Assembly: GCF_035084215.1 (NCBI RefSeq) | Contig: NC_090337.1 | Coordinates: forward strand, 42,036,001 to 42,100,000 | Direction of reading: 5' to 3' | Source of the DNA: Heptranchias perlo | Lineage: Eukaryota | DNA length: 64,000 nt | Part shown: one piece after another, positions 20,972-30,327 of the stretch | Layout of the letters: the number at the start of each line of letters is the position of its first letter | Numbering within the stretch: the stretch's first letter is position 1 | The notes under the pieces: model-generated | The model's database searches: none | Told to the model about the DNA's origin: nothing | The model's input: only the letters and a program-made list of their open reading frames with translations | Program-made: the position numbers and the translations under genes

Positions 20972-23709
20972 ATATGAGGGTAGGTGACTAAAAAGCTTGG
21001 TCAAAGAGGTAGGTTTTATGAGTTGTAAAGGAGGAGAGAGAGATAAAGAGGTGGAGAGGATTAGGGAGTGAATTCCAGAGCTTAGGGCCTAGGTAGCTGA
21101 AGGCACGTCTGCCAATGGAGGGGCAAAAGAAATTGTGGGTGCACAAGAGGCCAGAACTGGAGGAGTGCAGAGTTCTCAGAGGATTGTAGAGCTGGAGGAG
21201 GTTACAGAGATAGGGAAGGGCAAGGCCATGAGGAGATTTGAAAACAAGGATGAGAATTTTAAAATCAAGGTGTTGCTGGATCAGGGGCCAATGTAGGTCA
21301 GCGAGCACAGGGGTGATGGGTGAACGGAACTTGGTGCAAGTTAGGGTAAGGGCAGCAGAGTTTTGTATGAGCTCAAGTTTATGAAGGGTGGAAGATGGGA
21401 GGCCGACCAGGAGGACATTGGAATAGTCAAGTCTGGAGGTAACAAAAGTATGGATGAGGGCTTCAGCAGCAGATGGGCTGAGGCAGAAGCGGAGACGGGT
21501 GATATTACGGAGGTAGAGGTAGGTGGTTTGGTGATGAAGAGGATATGAGGTCAGAAGCTCATCTCAGAGTCAAATAGGATGCCGAGGTTGTGAACAGTCT
21601 GCTTCAGCCTCAAACGGTGACTAGGGAGGGGGATGGAATCGGATGGATGGATGGGTGGAGAGATGATCCAAACTGTTACAAGGTTTTGAAATTAATTCTC
21701 ATTTAGGTAGCACATGCCTCAAAAAGGTCTTCCATACATTTTGGTTCTAGCCCTACATGTTTCTGAGTGTGTGCTGATGATGGTGAACCACGCTTGCCTC
21801 CAGCATATATCTGAAAATCGTAGGCTCGCTGTTACAATCTTCCGACACGAACTGGTGACGGATGAGGTTCCCTGCTGCCAGCAGATACTCAGAAAGTTAC
21901 TAGCTAAAAACTAAACATTGTGCTTCACGTTGGATCATTAATGGATTGAGAGGTACGTGTCATACCCTAAATTACTACAAGTTATACAATGTTATTGAGA
22001 ATGCATATACAGGAACAGAACATACTGAAAATGTATTTTCTAATTCATTTTTTATGGTAACATCCACATAAAATTAAAGATGAAAGCCTGTATTTTCCTA
22101 CCAGCCCATTCCTTGTATTCCTGACCCTGGGGTCAAGGTCATTATCACATTAAGGGTGGACATTGGGGACTCTTTTTGACATCAGTGAGTTACCTGCCTC
22201 AGGTGGGGAGGGAATGAAATCGCTGTGGCACTGGCCAAAGATTTCCAAAAGACATTTAAAAATCTAAAGTTTTTGAATTTTGCATTTTCAAGTTGCAATT
22301 GATCATTCTAGGCTTATCTGGGTGGACGTATTATCTGGCCAATATTGCTTTTGTCATAAAATCCCAGAGTAGCGTCAGGTACACTTTTTCTTCCCTACTT
22401 GCCCAGGTTATGTCGCAGAGGAAGGTGAGCCAATTTATTTTATTTTTGTACTCAGCTCAGTTGGGCAGAGATTGATGGAAAAATTCAAGGGACAAGGACG
22501 CCCGTTGACTCACCAGCCCGGTCAGGATTTGTTTTCCCCTGCCCCTGCCAAGACCACCGGTGGTCGCTCCTTCCATAACCACCACGTGTAAATGAACGTG
22601 GGGGGCAGGTGGGCCCCAGCTCGTTCGAGAAGCTCCTTCCTATCTGCCCCACTTACTGTCACTTCCCAGGGCCAGCATGTAAAAGGTGGCAATAGGTCCC
22701 AAAACATGGTGATAAAGGCCTTGCAGTCTCACTGTGGAAGGAGAAGGCCTTGATGTGGCCTCCTGTCCCTCCAACTGGTCCCAAACACTTACCTGCTGAA
22801 GGCCCCAGTCTTGGCCAAAACCTTCAGTGAGAGTCTTGATCCAATCTTTAGGGCAGTTCTCTCCATATATTAGGTCACTTGCTGCCTCATCTATTGTTGC
22901 AGCGCCATCCCCACAGCAACACCTCCAGGACTTTCCACCGTTTCACTGGCAAGTTTCCTCTTGGCGGTGAGAATCCTGCCAGGAACCTTCTACGTGTATT
23001 GGTGGGTAGAAAATAAAGCCAGGTGTAACATTGGGAGATTAGTTATCCAACATTAATTCAACCCTGAAATTGCTAATTAAATGACAAGGAAATTCCAATA
23101 GCAAGATGGCAGAGGGCACTGTCAATTGTCAATTTCCGAGCAGTAGACGTCTTGACTTATCTTATCTAACGTTGGTTCATTGGTGCAGCTGAGATTGCCT
23201 ATTTTCTCTTTGTGCATGTCTGGGATATCATCCAATTACATATCAGGAAATGGAAACTCAAACATGTTACGCTTGTAACTGATAACATGAGGAGAGATGG
23301 AATGTTGACAACACTCCACTGGCCCTGACTGACAGGAAATATGTTTTTCATGCCTTTTCTGAGACAATAATAAAAGAAGTTCAATTATAGTCACTCAGTG
23401 AAAGCTGAAGCCCAAGAAATGCTCTTTTGTAACAACAATAAATATAGTATAGGCAGTGGGTAACATTATGTTTATTCCACAAGTAAGGAAGAACTAATAA
23501 ATTATAAACAGAAATAGTGGGAGGTAATAATGTGTAAAAAATGTTTTTTAATTAGTTTCATTGCAGCTTATAAACATAGGCCTTGAATTTATGCCTTAGG
23601 GTAATAGAACATCAATGCTTAACACATTCATCTGAAATGCCTACATGCGCTTTTTTAGCAAAGCATTTAACCCCTTTATTTTAAATGGGTTAACGTCTTC
23701 ACTAAAATA

Positions 23710-24275
23710 ACATTCATCCACCGACCTTCGGGTAAGCGTACTCCAAGGCGGCCTTCGAGACACACGACAACGCAAAATCGTCGAGCAGAAATTGATAGCC
23801 AAGTTCCGCACCCATGAGGACGGCCTCAACCGGGATCTTGGGTTCATGTCACGCTACACGTTACCCCACCAGCGAACAAATGTTATCTGTTTTTAATATA
23901 ATGGGTCATTTGCTGGCTCTCTCTGCCTTCCGGATGTTTCTGCCTCTCTCTGTGTTTTTTTTTCTCTGTTTTTTTTCCCTGTTTGTTTTTTTGTTGAATG
24001 TGTATTCGGGGGTTCTGCAGATGACACCTCTCTGTCTGAACACGGTGATTGCCTTGGCAACGGGCAGTTGCAGGGGCAGTCTGTAAACACCATGTATTAT
24101 TCAATATGTATAAATGCGTAGGCTTCAAGGAGATCCTGAACATTTACCTGAGGAAGGAGAAAATCTCCGAAAGCTTGTGAATTTAAAATAAAATTGCTGG
24201 ACTATAACTTGGTGTTGTAAAATTGTTTACAATTGTCAACCCCAGTCCATCACCGGCATCTCCACATCATGACTA
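23710..24275 (+). repeat. 5' pseudo-LTR of the Penelope-like element
   Basis: Contains the ORF 3' end, a T-rich UTR, TATAAA (24109-24114), the hammerhead, AATAAA (24187-24192) and the first 7 nt of the ORF. No mismatch seen against the 3' copy. Confidence 0.95.
24142..24182 (+). ncRNA. Minimal type I hammerhead ribozyme (copy 1)
   Basis: Stem I ATTTAC/GTGAAT (one G-U pair); core CTGAGGA; extra A; stem II GGAGA-aaa-TCTCC; GAA; palindromic AGCT helix III; predicted cleavage after T24176. Confidence 0.85.
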
Positions 24276-26977
24276 CCATCGACACCACAAACTGCCGGCT
24301 CACAGTGGAAAGGATATCCAAGAAGATCGCGCATTTAGACACAGACATCAAGTTTTTACAGAGCTGCAAGAAAGCAGACAAGATCCCGAAAGGACTCCAG
24401 ATCACGAACCCACTCAAGTCCACATACAACTCGGATTACGCTGAGAGACTCTGCCGCCGTACCTCTCGCACACTCCGCAACCATCTCATACACCAACTCT
24501 ACAGCAGACGCCACAACCTCGAAACCAAGATAGAGTCCATACTCTCAACCTGTACTCAGGACACAGCAGACCAGCTACGTTATACCGCCAAACAGACGAG
24601 GCAACGGAACTACGCTGCCTACATGAAAACCAAGAGCAGGAAGCTTGAGAAACTCGGCATCACCACCAGCAACGACCAAGCTTCCCCTGGTACCACGGTT
24701 GCAACCACAGGGAAGTCTATTGTCAATTTATCCGACCACACCCTTCAACCAGACGAAATCGAAGTTCTCAGCCGAGGGCTCAATTTCTGCCCCACTACCA
24801 AAATGGACCCCACTAGTCTCGCGGCGGACACAGAGGAATTCATCAGGAGAATGAGGCTCCGGGAATTCTACCACAAACCCCAAGATTTCAGCAGCGAACC
24901 CAATGAGACAATCGACGATCCGGAACAGCAGACAGAGGGATCCGCGGTACAGCAACCGAAGAGGAAAGAGTCAAACTGGACTCCTCCGGAGGGTCGCTGC
25001 CCTCAGCTGGACATGTATGCTCAAGCTGTCAGGAAATGCGTCAATGCCAGATTCATCAGCCGCACTCAGAAGACAGTCCAGAATGTCACCCGAGCACAAC
25101 GCAACGCCATCAACGCTCTCAAGACCAACCGCAACATCGTCATCAAACCAGCGGACAAAGGAGGAGCCATAGTCATACAGAACAGAACAGACTATTGCAA
25201 AGAAGCATACCGACAACTGGACAACCAGGAACACTACAGACGGTTACCCGCAGATCCGACCAAAGAACACACCCACCAGCTCAACAAACTGATCAAGACC
25301 TTCGATCCAGACCTTCAAAGCATCCTACGCATTCTCATCCCACGTAATCCCCGCGTGGGAGACTTCTACTGCCTCCCAAAGATACACAAAGCCAACACAC
25401 CCGGACGTCCCATCGTATCAGGCAACGGAACCCTGTGTGAGAACCTCTCTGGATACATCGAGGGCATCCTGAAACCCATCGTACAGGGAACCCCCAGCTT
25501 CTGTCGCGACACTACAGACTTCCTACAAAAACTCAGTACCCACGGACCAGTTGAACCAGGAACACTTCTCACCACGATGGACGTCTCGGCACTATACACC
25601 AGTATCCCCCACGATGACGGCATCGCTGCGACAGCATCAATACTCAACACCAACAACAGCCAATCTCCGGAAGCCATCCTACAACTCATCCGCTTCATCC
25701 TGGATCACAATGTCTTCACCTTCGATAACCAGTTCTTTACCCAAACACACGGAACAGCCATGGGGACCAAATTCGCACCCCAATACGCCAACATTTTCAT
25801 GCACAAGTTCGAGCAGGACTTCTTCACTGCACAAGACCTCCAACCAACACTATACACCAGATACATCGACGACATTTTCTTTCTATGGACCCACGGCAAG
25901 GAATCACTAAAGAGACTACACGATAACATCAACAAGTTCCATCCCACCATCAAGCTCACCATGGACTACTCCTCAGAATCAGTTTCTTTCTTGGACACAC
26001 GAATCTCCATCAAAGACGGGCACCTCAGCACCTCACTCTACCGCAAGCCCACGGACAACCTCACGATGCTCCACTTTTCCAGCTTCCACCCTAACCACGT
26101 CAAAGAGGCCATCCCCTATGGACAGGCCCTGCGAATACACAGGGTCTGCTCAGACGAGGAGGAACGCGATGGACACCTACAGACGCTGAAAGACGCCCTA
26201 GTAAGAACGGGATATGACGCTCGACTCATCGATCGACAGTTCCGACGGGCCACAGCAAAAAATCGCATAGACCTCCTCAGGAGACTAACACGGGACGCAA
26301 CCAACAGAGTACCCTTTGTTGTCCAGTACTTCCCCGGAGCGGAGAAACTACGCCATGTTCTCCGCAGCCTTCAACATGTCATCAATGAGGACAAACACCT
26401 CGCTATGGCCATCCCCACACCTCCACTACTCGCCTTTAAACAGCCACCCAACCTCAAACAGACCATCGTTCGCAGCAAACTACCCAGCTTTCAAGAGAAC
26501 AGCGTCCACGACGCCACACAACCCTGCCACGGTAACCTCTGCAAGACATGCCAGATCATCGACACAGATACCACCATCACACGAGATGACACCACCCACC
26601 AGGTGCATGGTTCATACTCCTGTGACTCGGCCAACGTTGTCTACCTCATACGTTGCAGGAAAGGATGCCCCAGAGCATGGTACATTGGCGAGACCATGCA
26701 GACGCTGCGACAACGGATGAACGGACACCGCGCAACAATCGCCAAACAGGAGGGTTCCCTCCCAGTCGGGGAACACTTCAGCAGTCATGGACATTCATCC
26801 ACCGACCTTCGGGTAAGCGTACTCCAAGGCGGCCTTCGAGACACACGACAACGCAAAATCGTCGAGCAGAAATTGATAGCCAAGTTCCGCACCCATGAGG
26901 ACGGCCTCAACCGGGATCTTGGGTTCATGTCACGCTACACGTTACCCCACCAGCGAACAAATGTTATCTGTTTTTAA
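24269..26977 (+). CDS. Penelope-like reverse transcriptase / GIY-YIG endonuclease polyprotein, 902 aa from the first ATG
   Basis: Uninterrupted ORF. VLSRGLNFCP, IKPADKGGAIV (PLE DKG motif), FYCLPKIHK, GRPIVS, MDVSALYTSI, GTAMGT, RYIDDIF, FLD, LYRKPT. Cys linker PCHGNLCKTC. GIY-YIG: VVYLIRC...WYIGET...LRQRMNGHR...EHF..H...E...GLN. The track ORF starts at a TTG (24233); the first ATG is 24269. Confidence 0.96.
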   Translation: MTTIDTTNCRLTVERISKKIAHLDTDIKFLQSCKKADKIPKGLQITNPLKSTYNSDYAERLCRRTSRTLRNHLIHQLYSRRHNLETKIESILSTCTQDTADQLRYTAKQTRQRNYAAYMKTKSRKLEKLGITTSNDQASPGTTVATTGKSIVNLSDHTLQPDEIEVLSRGLNFCPTTKMDPTSLAADTEEFIRRMRLREFYHKPQDFSSEPNETIDDPEQQTEGSAVQQPKRKESNWTPPEGRCPQLDMYAQAVRKCVNARFISRTQKTVQNVTRAQRNAINALKTNRNIVIKPADKGGAIVIQNRTDYCKEAYRQLDNQEHYRRLPADPTKEHTHQLNKLIKTFDPDLQSILRILIPRNPRVGDFYCLPKIHKANTPGRPIVSGNGTLCENLSGYIEGILKPIVQGTPSFCRDTTDFLQKLSTHGPVEPGTLLTTMDVSALYTSIPHDDGIAATASILNTNNSQSPEAILQLIRFILDHNVFTFDNQFFTQTHGTAMGTKFAPQYANIFMHKFEQDFFTAQDLQPTLYTRYIDDIFFLWTHGKESLKRLHDNINKFHPTIKLTMDYSSESVSFLDTRISIKDGHLSTSLYRKPTDNLTMLHFSSFHPNHVKEAIPYGQALRIHRVCSDEEERDGHLQTLKDALVRTGYDARLIDRQFRRATAKNRIDLLRRLTRDATNRVPFVVQYFPGAEKLRHVLRSLQHVINEDKHLAMAIPTPPLLAFKQPPNLKQTIVRSKLPSFQENSVHDATQPCHGNLCKTCQIIDTDTTITRDDTTHQVHGSYSCDSANVVYLIRCRKGCPRAWYIGETMQTLRQRMNGHRATIAKQEGSLPVGEHFSSHGHSSTDLRVSVLQGGLRDTRQRKIVEQKLIAKFRTHEDGLNRDLGFMSRYTLPHQRTNVICF

Positions 26978-27356
26978 TATAATGGGTCATTTGCTGGCTC
27001 TCTCTGCCTTCCGGATGTTTCTGCCTCTCTCTGTGTTTTTTTTTCTCTGTTTTTTTTCCCTGTTTGTTTTTTTGTTGAATGTGTATTCGGGGGTTCTGCA
27101 GATGACACCTCTCTGTCTGAACACGGTGATTGCCTTGGCAACGGGCAGTTGCAGGGGCAGTCTGTAAACACCATGTATTATTCAATATGTATAAATGCGT
27201 AGGCTTCAAGGAGATCCTGAACATTTACCTGAGGAAGGAGAAAATCTCCGAAAGCTTGTGAATTTAAAATAAAATTGCTGGACTATAACTTGGTGTTGTA
27301 AAATTGTTTACAATTGTCAACCCCAGTCCATCACCGGCATCTCCACATCATGACTA
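26791..27356 (+). repeat. 3' pseudo-LTR of the Penelope-like element
   Basis: Same sequence as 23710-24275; the small ORFs in the track are duplicated exactly at +3081. Confidence 0.95.
27223..27263 (+). ncRNA. Minimal type I hammerhead ribozyme (copy 2)
   Basis: Identical to copy 1 at +3081; predicted cleavage after T27257. Confidence 0.85.
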
Positions 27357-27505
27357 AAATAACAGAGAGGGATTTTAGGCAAATACAATAAGCAGTCATA
27401 TGTTACTTTTCCAGAGAACAATTTCAAGGTCTAAAAGCCACTTTATTACTCATTACATCACTTAAACTCTCTTTCGCCTCTCAGTTCCCAAACAAACTAC
27501 CCATC

Positions 27506-27659
27506 AGGAGTGAAATTGGTCTGAGGCAGCAGCGCAAAACAAGCGACAGAGAAACAGCCGCCCATTTTACACTCCACCCGATTTTCTTTTCCATGTAAAA
27601 CGGACTGCCGACTCGTTAGCTCTCATTTTGCGCTACCTTCCGAGACAACTTTCACCCCC
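27506..27659. mobile_element. Small MITE (Harbinger-like)
   Basis: TIR aggagtgaaattggtct / agacaactttcaccccc; possible 3-bp TSD atc; internal cccattttacac.cc.cc.gattttctttccat shared with 28533-28664. Confidence 0.65.
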
Positions 27660-28329
27660 ATCACCTTGGTAATTACATTAGTCGGTAACGTGTAAAATTC
27701 ACTGGGCGTTTTCAGCCACCAATACTTTTTTGGGAGTAAATGTGTACGTATAGTTAGCTTCTTGAGTTTATTAACAATAGATATTGTTGCCGACTGTACA
27801 GGAAAGAAACAGTCTTGTCACTTCATGTTTCTTGAAATCTTACAGTGAGGTATCTGAATGTGACAGTAGTCAGAGAGGAAACATTAGCTCTACTAGTTAT
27901 TATGGTTCTGGTTTCCATATCTGACTATTTCTGGATATTTGTTATATTCAGGTGCTTTAACAGTCGTAATGCTGGGAGCTGAGTGACAAGAGTGGCTTTT
28001 TCCATAAAGTAACAAACAACAAATATATCTGTCTGGCAATATCTGTAATGTAACACAATCCACAAAATATTTCAGCAAAGTGTCTGAAATTACATTATAG
28101 AGACAGTTTTACATCAGTTCTTGTTGGTTGTATTTGTGATAAAACAGGTACAGCTCTGCAGTACGGCCTAGCGAGAGTCTTAGGAATTAATGTAGCTTGC
28201 TGCGCAGTACATAAGATCCAAAAGGAGAAAGGCTGACTGCTTGAAATGAACTGAAATGAAATTAAATGAATAAATGAAAAGAGAAATACTAAGGTTTCCA
28301 CATTAGCAGCCTTCTGGTAAATGAAAAAT

Positions 28330-28460
28330 TAAAACACGGAAAATGCTGGAAATGGACAGAAGGTCAATCCACATTGGAAAGAGAAAATTGGTTAATGTTT
28401 GGGGTGATCAAATTGCTCACTGATCTGTTTAGAATTTCTAGCACATTATATTTTATTTCA
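28330..28460. repeat. Degenerate palindromic repeat resembling an elasmobranch Penelope pLTR-derived inverted repeat
   Basis: aaaatgctggaaat...atttctagcacatt inverted arms; a tail-like piece of the same kind (atttcagatttccagcatctgcagtattttg) lies at about 47382-47415. The family assignment is from memory. Confidence 0.4.
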
Positions 28461-28532
28461 AAATTTCAATTTTCTTTTTATCTCTTATGGTAAATTAAGT
28501 TCTACTATCTTAAAGTGACCATAGGAGACTTG

Positions 28533-28664
28533 GAGGGTGAAATTGGACTTCGGCAATAGCACAAAATGAGAGATAGCAGATCGGCAGCCCATTTTACACC
28601 CCGCCTGATTTTCTTTCCATTGCACTCTGCACATTGCACTCTGCCGAAGTCCAATCTCACCCCT
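28533..28664. mobile_element. Small MITE, same family as 27506-27659
   Basis: Near-perfect TIR gggtgaaattggacttcggca / tgccgaagtccaatctcaccc. Confidence 0.75.
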
Positions 28665-30327
28665 ATGGTGTGAACATAGCTTGTTTGGATGGGAAATAGT
28701 AAATAAAAAAATGCAATATTTTGCCACTAAAAATATGCAAATTTGTACTAACAATAACAGGTGCTTTTGCTGATCATCCATCAGGAAAATTGAATACTGA
28801 GAAATGGACAACTTCTTTGCAAGAAATGTCATGTTTGGATAAAGAATGCTATGAGATCAGGATTCCTTAAACTCCAGATAAAAGTAGCTAATTTGCAAAT
28901 CTTTGCACCACAGTCTTCATTCCACAGTTCAGTCCAAAAAAAAGATAGAAAACATTTACAAAAGTGATATCTTACACAGGTGGTTAGACTCACCTGGGTG
29001 AAAGTTGGCAGTGAATTAATTATATTTAGTATGCTGTGCAATAAAACTGGATAATTGGGTAGCATTTTATGCTTGAATCAGGATTTTATATTTAAATATT
29101 ATGCTTCATTAGTAGAGCAAGTTATTTGTTATAGTCAGTTCTGATCAGAGGCTAACGTTTCCGCTGCCTCTGCTCTGGGACTGTTTATGCAAATTTACAG
29201 TACTCAGGCAGTAAATTGTGTTGCACGTGCTATGCCATAAATTGTGTTACACGTGTAAATCATGGGATTTGTTGCAGGATATTATTCTGCACCAAGTAAT
29301 TTCCCCCATTCACTAGTGATTAAATACTGTATAACAAAAGAGAATATTGGTAGATTGGAATTGTGTGCTTGCATCATATACATGTTCATCTGAAATCAGC
29401 TTTCTAATTTTTTTTCTGGATCACTGGATTTGGTATAGTGCCTCTTTAAATGGTGCTACTTAAGTTTTTTACTACCCTGTTCTCCTAAACTAGATTTGCG
29501 GATATACACATTTAGCTCGTCTGTCCAGTGGAGCAATAGCTCAGGCATTTAGAGATCTGGACCGCTTAATTCTGCGATGAATGCTTGTGACTGCTTAGTA
29601 CAGAATTAGTTCTTGGGTCACCAGTTCTAAAACCCAAACAGCTCCCACTTAACCGAGCCATCAGAATTGTTCTGTCCACTGGTGAAACATTTAAAAGAAG
29701 TAAGTTAGAAGTAGGTTAGAAAAAGTAAGTTGTATACAATACCTCAGCGCTAAGGGGAAGCACCATTGGAAAAGACACGAACATCAATGATACAAAACAA
29801 AAAGTAGATAAATAAACCGGGTCCAATGCATTTGAACTTTGTCAGAGAGTTTCTTTCTTGATTGAATAAGGTACCTCCACAGATGTTAGTTGAAGACGTG
29901 CAGATGGTGCTTGGAGCCACATTATTGACCTCATTGGATTTAGAGTTACTTAACAGGCAGTTCAGGTACTTAGCTAAATATCTGCTGGATGAGCACCAAG
30001 TGCACCAGTATTCTTGCCTACACTGGTATTTCTGCAATGACATCATCTTGCTCTGGCCTTCCTTGCAGGTTAAATTTCTCTTCCCCCATGGTTATACCTC
30101 TTTGTATTATGAAGTTACGAAGCATGCAGAGGACAACGATGATCTTGGAGACCTTGGCAGCACTGTACTATAAGTGGCTGTGACCTGTAGTGACATTGTA
30201 AGGTGTTCCGTTCCCTTCCACTTTACACCAGTTCTTGGACCTCGGAATTACAAGAACAAAATTGTACGCGACAAACAGACTTTGGCTCAACCCAAACTTA
30301 TTAGTTTATTAGACCAACAAAACCCCA

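What the first reader, a model, noticed from the sequence alone, without database searches (positions are those of the whole stretch)
24142..27263. Paired minimal hammerhead ribozymes that would excise an exact 3081-nt ORF-containing monomer RNA
Seen: each pLTR has ATTTAC-CTGAGGA-A-GGAGAaaaTCTCC-GAA-AGCT-T-GTGAAT. Helix III is reduced to the self-complementary AGCT, and an extra A lies between A9 and stem II. Known: minimal hammerheads occur in PLE pLTRs and are thought to cleave as dimers via a palindromic helix III; an extra A at this position occurs in the CChMVd viroid hammerhead. Inference: the two copies could pair in cis and cleave after 24176 and 27257. That would release a unit-length RNA (24177-27257) with a 92-nt leader and the whole ORF, bearing 5'-OH and 2',3'-cyclic phosphate ends that could be circularised. 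Reverse transcription around such a circle, or of a tandem transcript, would explain the 'one unit plus 566 nt' structure. TATAAA lies about 30 nt before the ribozyme and AATAAA 10 nt after the cut, suggesting a compact promoter/ribozyme/polyA module.
Basis: partly seen in the sequence, partly recalled or inferred. Interest (0 to 1): 0.8.

Follow-up and report, generated by a model that had tools for sequence, protein, structure and literature searches.

The report
Shark Penelope retroelement's paired hammerhead ribozymes
This is a young, very abundant jumping gene of a known kind (a Penelope-like element) with a tiny predicted self-cutting RNA motif at each end; the shapes of its genomic copies suggest that long copies are likely made by copying round an RNA circle, an idea already published but not yet shown by experiment.

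Summary
Observation confirmed. Two identical minimal type I hammerhead motifs (24142-24182, 27223-27263) flank a 902-aa RT + GIY-YIG ORF of a Neptune-type Penelope-like element; its closest named relatives are shark proteins. The motif fits the published PLE min-HHR consensus, and the excise-circularise-copy model is that of Cervera and De la Pena 2014, so neither is new. Copies in this genome add evidence. The core occurs 18,459 times (control 0) and stems I/II covary. Tandem insertions of up to 4.4 units sit inside one target-site duplication of about 12 bp, and their units nearly always share private SNPs. 5' ends do not pile at the predicted cut, but 978 copies stop at one base 30 nt after TATAAA, likely the transcription start on uncut RNA. 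Copies long enough to pass that point again rarely stop there (4% against 38%). Best reading: short copies from uncut linear RNA, long copies from a seamless unit-length circle (about 0.55). Against: PLEs without hammerheads also form partial tandems, and cleavage was dispensable in vitro for an anole PLE. No RNA or cleavage data here.

The parts
23701..23712 (+). Left target-site duplication (12 bp)
23710..24275 (+). 5' pseudo-LTR: second-pass copy of the unit's 3' end, 100% identical to 26791-27356
24109..24118 (+). TATAAA + TGCG block, likely promoter; the ATGCG part marks the intact upstream region of older subfamilies too
24138..24140 (+). Inferred transcription start: 978 copies begin at the equivalent base
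24142..24182 (+). 5' minimal type I hammerhead motif; predicted cut after 24176
24187..24192 (+). AATAAA, followed by a GU-rich block at 24209-24218; likely polyA signal, untested
   Evidence: function inferred
24231..24275 (+). Two clusters of copy 3' ends (24231-24236 and 24265-24275), the PLE 'tail' sites, inferred RT start points
   Evidence: 61 of 68 arms; compare PMC11167929
24269..26977 (+). 902-aa ORF: RT (DKG, YIDD), CX4CxxC linker, GIY-YIG endonuclease with CCHH
26791..27356 (+). 3' pseudo-LTR, overlapping the ORF end
27223..27263 (+). 3' minimal hammerhead motif; predicted cut after 27257
27353..27364 (+). Right target-site duplication (12 bp)

Best explanation
This is an intact, young Neptune-type Penelope-like retroelement with a minimal hammerhead motif in each terminal repeat, and its RNA likely serves as template in two forms: uncut linear RNA for short copies and a likely ribozyme-cut, ligated 3081-nt circle for long and tandem copies. 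Transcription likely starts at about 24139, just before stem I. The element's RT likely primes inside the leader (about 24233 or 24269). On uncut linear RNA, including RNA from solo repeats that has no partner ribozyme, it would run off the 5' end and leave 93-134-bp SINE-like copies. On a full transcript the two end motifs would pair through AGCU, probably with protein help, cut after 24176 and 27257, and be joined by a host ligase; RT would then run past the junction and round again. Shown: motif, covariation, copy structures, end positions. Inferred: start site, cleavage, ligation, circle.
For: (1) Single events: 33 of 45 insertions have a target-site duplication of at least 10 bp, most often 12, and 10 of 13 more; one encloses 4.38 units with a private SNP in 6 of 6 repeats. 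(2) In 48 head-to-tail arms (68,148 duplicated sites) 211 SNV calls are shared by all units, 20 of them private to the insertion; only 3 non-private ones are discordant. (3) 978 copies stop at one base, TATA+30; 13 of 33 non-inverted junctions sampled end there (p about 3e-12). (4) Truncation marker in the 35 nt upstream: 3,542 of 9,224 young arms (38%) but 13 of 318 arms that continue into the ORF (4%), so long templates have no 5' end there. (5) No pile at the cut, as a seamless circle predicts. (6) Arrays of 404 nt x 9.5 and 535 nt x about 4.5, each unit with a whole ribozyme, lie in single duplications. (7) C3, G8, the bulged A, G12 and U17 were left free in my selection and are invariant in 17 of 17 variants while N7 and loop II vary. 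(8) Related animal retrozymes give circles in vivo and are ligated by RtcB in vitro (PMC7229834, passages).
Against: Naiad and most Chlamys PLEs lack canonical hammerheads yet form partial tandems (PMC8557442, passages). For the anole PLE, ribozyme mutants insert normally in vitro and no RNA-seq reads end at the cut (PMC11167929). Min-HHR dimers cleave poorly in vitro. The double-hammerhead fold scores -16.9 kcal/mol against -19.4 for two monomers, and upstream sequence competes for the 3' copy. Three private SNVs are shared by only some adjacent units (C4b, C1d) and one arm (L141) is chimeric, so DNA-level exchange or template mixing occurs. A 163-nt x 13 array has a disrupted stem I and no duplication that I could find. 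The first-pass pile may come from solo-repeat transcripts, so point (4) does not separate a circle from efficient strand transfer.
Confidence: 0.55

Rival explanations
1. No circle: RT copies an uncut, terminally redundant linear RNA and jumps efficiently from its 5' end to the 3' repeat of the same or a sister RNA, once per round. The hammerheads hold the ends together, trim ends, or are passengers.
For: PLE clades without hammerheads make the same partial tandems. Uncut RNA is the main substrate for the anole PLE in vitro. Uncut 5' ends are abundant here. The chimeric arm L141 fits a jump between RNAs.
Against: Needs about 95% transfer per pass to give the 4% figure, by an RT in which Pfam found no RNase H. 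Does not explain invariant catalytic bases. Chimeras are rare: 1 of 48 arms.
Confidence: 0.27
2. Long copies come from linear read-through transcripts (host promoters or tandem master loci); arrays grow and are homogenised afterwards by unequal crossover and gene conversion. The ribozymes only process read-through RNA.
For: Nested SNVs in two of three arrays of three or more units. The 163-nt array with a disrupted stem I. This is the scenario drawn in PMC11167929.
Against: Transcripts from a repeat's own promoter should leave full-length copies ending at the start site; they are rare. Inherited differences between units should recur in sister insertions: 3 against 211 concordant. Private SNVs are also shared across inverted arms.
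Confidence: 0.15
3. The 5'-end pile is an RT stall or microhomology artefact at an upstream hairpin, not a transcription start.
For: A weak hairpin ends at about 24140 (-2.5 kcal/mol); many inverted copies join through AAA/TTT at this spot.
Against: The same sequence is passed freely on later rounds; the peak holds for non-inverted copies; stem II is more stable and shows no such pile that I saw.
Confidence: 0.12

Closest known systems
[quoted passage not shown]
   Same: Fits the consensus CUGANGAH-G...C-GAAAN-palindrome-NUH; the turtle and Philodina rows of their Fig. S3 have the same G-C-U-U helix III end; two copies about 3 kb apart; same proposed dimer, circle and more-than-unit copying.
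   Different: No cartilaginous fish in their Table S1 or Fig. S3. They give no copy-level evidence for template form; here start-site stops, shared private SNVs and single duplications are measured.
Neptune clade of EN+ Penelope-like elements (PMC8557442)
   Same: C-terminal GIY-YIG with CCHH, CX2-5CxxC linker, partial tandems, inverted 5' arms, 30-40-bp tail.
   Different: Clear 12-bp duplications at mostly non-microsatellite sites. Neptune versus Nematis not tested by tree.
Anolis Poseidon PAc (Frangieh 2024, PMC11167929)
   Same: Two internal RT start sites matching the genomic tail; hammerhead at the repeat/ORF junction.
   Different: Other clade; there the ribozyme overlaps the ORF start and RT starts inside the ORF, here the cut lies 92 nt upstream of ATG and RT starts in the leader.
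Non-LTR retrozymes (PMC7229834; bioRxiv 10.64898/2026.07.22.740005)
   Same: Short tandem units, each with a type I hammerhead, proposed to derive from PLE repeats; the 404- and 535-nt arrays look like this.
   Different: The arrays here are one-off insertions about 99% identical to the autonomous element, with minimal rather than canonical motifs; the 535-nt junction occurs only at one duplicated locus.

Membership tests
PLE minimal type I hammerhead | Core CUGANGA, GAAA, NUH with a bulged base before G10.1 and G10.1-C11.1 | tested here: met
   consensus
PLE minimal type I hammerhead | Helix III reduced to a palindrome | tested here: met
   AGCT at 24172-24175
PLE minimal type I hammerhead | Covariation in stems I and II | tested here: met
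   94.1% paired, 3 of 11 pairs with double changes, 17 related sequences
PLE minimal type I hammerhead | Self-cleavage as a dimer | not testable with these tools
   Only energies computed; the active dimer is not the predicted ground state
Rfam hammerhead families | Score against Rfam models | tested here: not met
   No hammerhead hit to E = 10 in 22000-30000
EN+ Penelope-like element | One ORF with RT and C-terminal GIY-YIG with CCHH | tested here: met
   RVT_1 E 3e-10; GIY-YIG E 4e-4, 21 bits, just under the 22.6 cut-off; motifs
EN+ Penelope-like element | Partial tandems, inverted 5' arms, 30-40-bp tail | tested here: met
Neptune clade | CX2-5CxxC linker between RT and EN | tested here: met
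   residues 753-761, conserved in 8 of 8 aligned proteins; shared with Nematis
Neptune clade | RT phylogeny with reference elements | not tested
   No reference set at hand; Neptune preferred because the 2026 preprint found only Neptune and Poseidon in vertebrates
Non-LTR retrozyme (mini arrays) | Tandem units that each hold a whole hammerhead | tested here: met
   404- and 535-nt arrays; the 163-nt array has a disrupted stem I
Non-LTR retrozyme (mini arrays) | Expressed as circular RNA and spread as a family | tested here: inconclusive
   535-nt junction: 7 matches, one duplicated locus; RNA form not testable

The most novel reading that the evidence does not exclude
The genome holds a fossil record of the whole PLE cycle: promoter, hammerhead and polyA signal are packed so that each mRNA carries one ribozyme at each extreme end; paired cleavage removes cap and tail and yields a 3081-nt circle that the element's RT copies round for up to several turns; uncut RNA gives thousands of start-site-bounded SINE-like copies; internally deleted copies give retrozyme arrays in one step.
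Probability: 0.45. Interest if true: 0.72.

Novelty: new member of a known kind. Interest (0 to 1): 0.5.

Why it matters
What PLE hammerheads do, and how PLE tandems arise, is still called unclear in the papers read (PMC8557442; PMC11167929). This family is young, intact and present in thousands of near-identical copies, so it gives sharp, testable coordinates: start at about 24139, cut at 24176/24177, RT starts at about 24233 and 24269, and a 3081-nt circle. The same copy-level tests (second-pass stops, shared private SNVs) can be run on hammerhead-free Naiads to decide between circle and strand transfer.

Tried and rejected
Rfam scan: no hammerhead hit. Sequencing runs: no RNA holder listed on record; contigs of runs guessed to be RNA cover the unit but cannot show ends, strand or circles, so they are not used as evidence. 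A pile of 5' ends at the cut site was looked for and not seen (by eye). An upstream fold that hides the 3' ribozyme is predicted for the window type (stem I probability 0.96 to 0.02) but only in 12 of 24 upstream variants and without a shuffled control: not adopted. Back-splicing as a route to the circle: no AG|GT in 24131-24275. A possible intron 26814-27101 (GTAAG donor, CAG acceptor): no such joint among the contigs. Whether the 5'-end pile shifts with TATA distance in older subfamilies: ends of 11-18 nt are common where the block lies further away, but the sample is small and mixed: inconclusive. Lunse et al. 2016 on PLE hammerhead dimers is not held; only its title was seen in a reference list. 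No earlier scan findings.

Full report
Observation. All coordinates of the finding check out: a 566-nt exact repeat at offset 3081, the motif at 24142-24182 and 27223-27263, TATAAA at 24109, AATAAA at 24187, ATG at 24269. The ORF is 902 aa with an RT domain, a GIY-YIG domain just under Pfam's cut-off and CX4CxxC and CCHH motifs. The closest named proteins, 80-96% identical, are from sharks. A 12-bp target-site duplication encloses the element, so the 1.18 units arrived in one event and the true redundancy is 559-566 nt.

The motif is real and of a known kind. A degenerate core pattern matches 18,459 times in the 3.25-Gb genome, its reversed control 0 times. Seventeen variants with intact upstream DNA align without gaps: 94.1% of stem cells pair, 3 of 11 pairs change on both sides, 0 of 500 shuffles reach the 11 such cells, and slid registers give 24-48%. 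The sequences are related and U4, G5, A6, A9, A13, A14 and U16.1 were fixed by my selection; C3, G8, the bulged A, G12 and U17 were free and did not vary. PMC4209133 (main text parts 1-2 of 4, supplement parts 1-2 of 3) describes this motif class, the bulged base, the palindromic helix III, weak dimer cleavage, and proposes cleavage, ligation and more-than-unit copying.

Copy structure. I fetched 45 complete insertions around hits; 33 have a duplication of at least 10 bp, as do 10 of 13 further multi-unit loci. 3' ends fall in two clusters about 36 nt apart (61 of 68 arms), the tail that PMC11167929 (parts 1-2 of 4) ties to internal RT starts. Among 57 insertions, 48 head-to-tail arms of 1.05-3.16 units give 68,148 duplicated sites, with the poly-T tract and two indel spots masked. 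SNV calls: 184 common, 7 rare and 20 private shared by all units; 31 private in one unit; 3 private in some units; 3 non-private discordant. Two of the 20 are counted twice, once per arm. This is what repeated reading of one unit predicts. The three partial cases and arm L141 show that DNA-level exchange or template mixing also happens. These arms were chosen for extending upstream, so their own 5' ends are no test of the start site.

5' ends. No pile at the predicted cut: of 1,288 young arms that break off at 24172-24185, 7 of the first 100 rows begin at 24177 and about a third at 24180, mostly inversions (by eye). Upstream of the ribozyme the picture differs: 3,542 of 9,224 young arms lack the reference A 35 nt upstream, and 19 of the first 100 A-bearing rows are truncated too (by eye), about half in all. 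In the next window upstream only about 12 of the first 100 of 2,459 matches are truncations; the rest are intact variants (by eye), about a twelfth of the first window. From 70 loci covering the first 91 of 100 rows, collapsed to 50 distinct junctions, 17 end exactly 10 nt before C3 and 23 within 9-11 nt; among non-inverted ones 13 of 33. Genome-wide 978 copies stop at that base, 30 nt after the start of TATAAA. Five of 12 such direct copies show a duplication of at least 9 bp. I read this as run-off at the transcription start of uncut RNA; this is inference.

Second pass. Of 329 ribozyme sites that continue into the ORF, 24 carry the truncation marker, 12 of them in one 163-nt array: 13 of 318 with the array counted once, 4% against 38% (arms are not independent, so the p value is only indicative). 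Long copies thus come from a template with no 5' end at that point. A circle fits. So does very efficient strand transfer on full-length RNA, if the first-pass stops come from solo-repeat transcripts.

Mini arrays. A 404-nt unit x 9.5 (13-bp duplication) and a 535-nt unit x about 4.5 (12-bp duplication, present twice with identical flanks) each repeat one deletion junction and end at a tail site. They resemble the retrozymes of PMC7229834 (passages) and bear on the PLE origin argued in bioRxiv 10.64898/2026.07.22.740005 (parts 1-3 of 5). The 163-nt x 13 array has a disrupted stem I and no duplication found, and may have grown otherwise.

Against the circle. PMC8557442 (passages) reports partial tandems in Naiads and Chlamys that lack canonical hammerheads and calls the function unclear. 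In PMC11167929 ribozyme mutants insert normally in vitro, cleavage needs protein, and no reads end at the cut. The double hammerhead computes at -16.9 kcal/mol against -19.4 for two monomers and -23.7 for the best dimer; the model ignores core contacts. Drosophila Penelope has a TATA-less internal promoter (PMC2377424, passages), unlike the reading here. PMC6765202 (passages) explains tandems by insertion next to older copies, which the shared private SNVs and single duplications do not fit for this family.

Novelty. A new member of a known kind with a published model. Six literature searches found no paper on shark PLE hammerheads and none that measures start-site stops or within-insertion concordance for PLEs; the library lacks most subscription journals, Lunse et al. 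2016 could not be read, and preprint supplements were not seen. Verdict: observation confirmed, interpretation partly supported, circle model about 0.55, interest 0.5.

Noticed in passing
L210:3357-7183 (G000 C2, about 21.273-21.277 Mb): 404-nt unit repeated 9.5 times inside a 13-bp duplication; each unit holds TATA, hammerhead, AATAAA and tail sites. One SNV is shared by the two 3'-most units.
   Followed up: partly
L142:4251-6893 and L143:4331-6973 (G000 C1510): 535-nt array with an inverted arm, present twice 514 kb apart with near-identical flanks; units differ at 3-6 sites, mostly private to one unit.
   Followed up: partly
L209:3818-5929 (G000 C5): 163-nt unit x 13 whose junction lies at the equivalent of 24146, close to the 5'-end pile; stem I disrupted; no duplication found.
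   Followed up: partly
L119 + L120 (G000 C14, about 61.250-61.264 Mb): 13.5-kb head-to-head insertion, 2.2 units per arm, both arms breaking at 26749, one 12-bp duplication.
   Followed up: yes
L141: Chimeric arm: the 3'-most repeat has the window-type alleles at 27217/27219, the other two have the common type.
   Followed up: partly
window:40077-40152: 76-bp, 91% identical fragment of the leader (equivalent to 27248-27323), an older short copy.
   Followed up: no
window:56376-58566: Near-perfect nested inverted repeats (392 and 401 nt, 99-100%) unrelated to this family by blastn; possibly another young inverted insertion.
   Followed up: no
window:26814-27101: Consensus-like splice donor and, after a long pyrimidine tract, an acceptor; no spliced joint seen in contigs.
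   Followed up: partly
loose ends at 24144-24146 in runs of other organisms: Related species carry the same core with different stem I and longer stem II sequences, so other hammerhead families exist in relatives.
   Followed up: no
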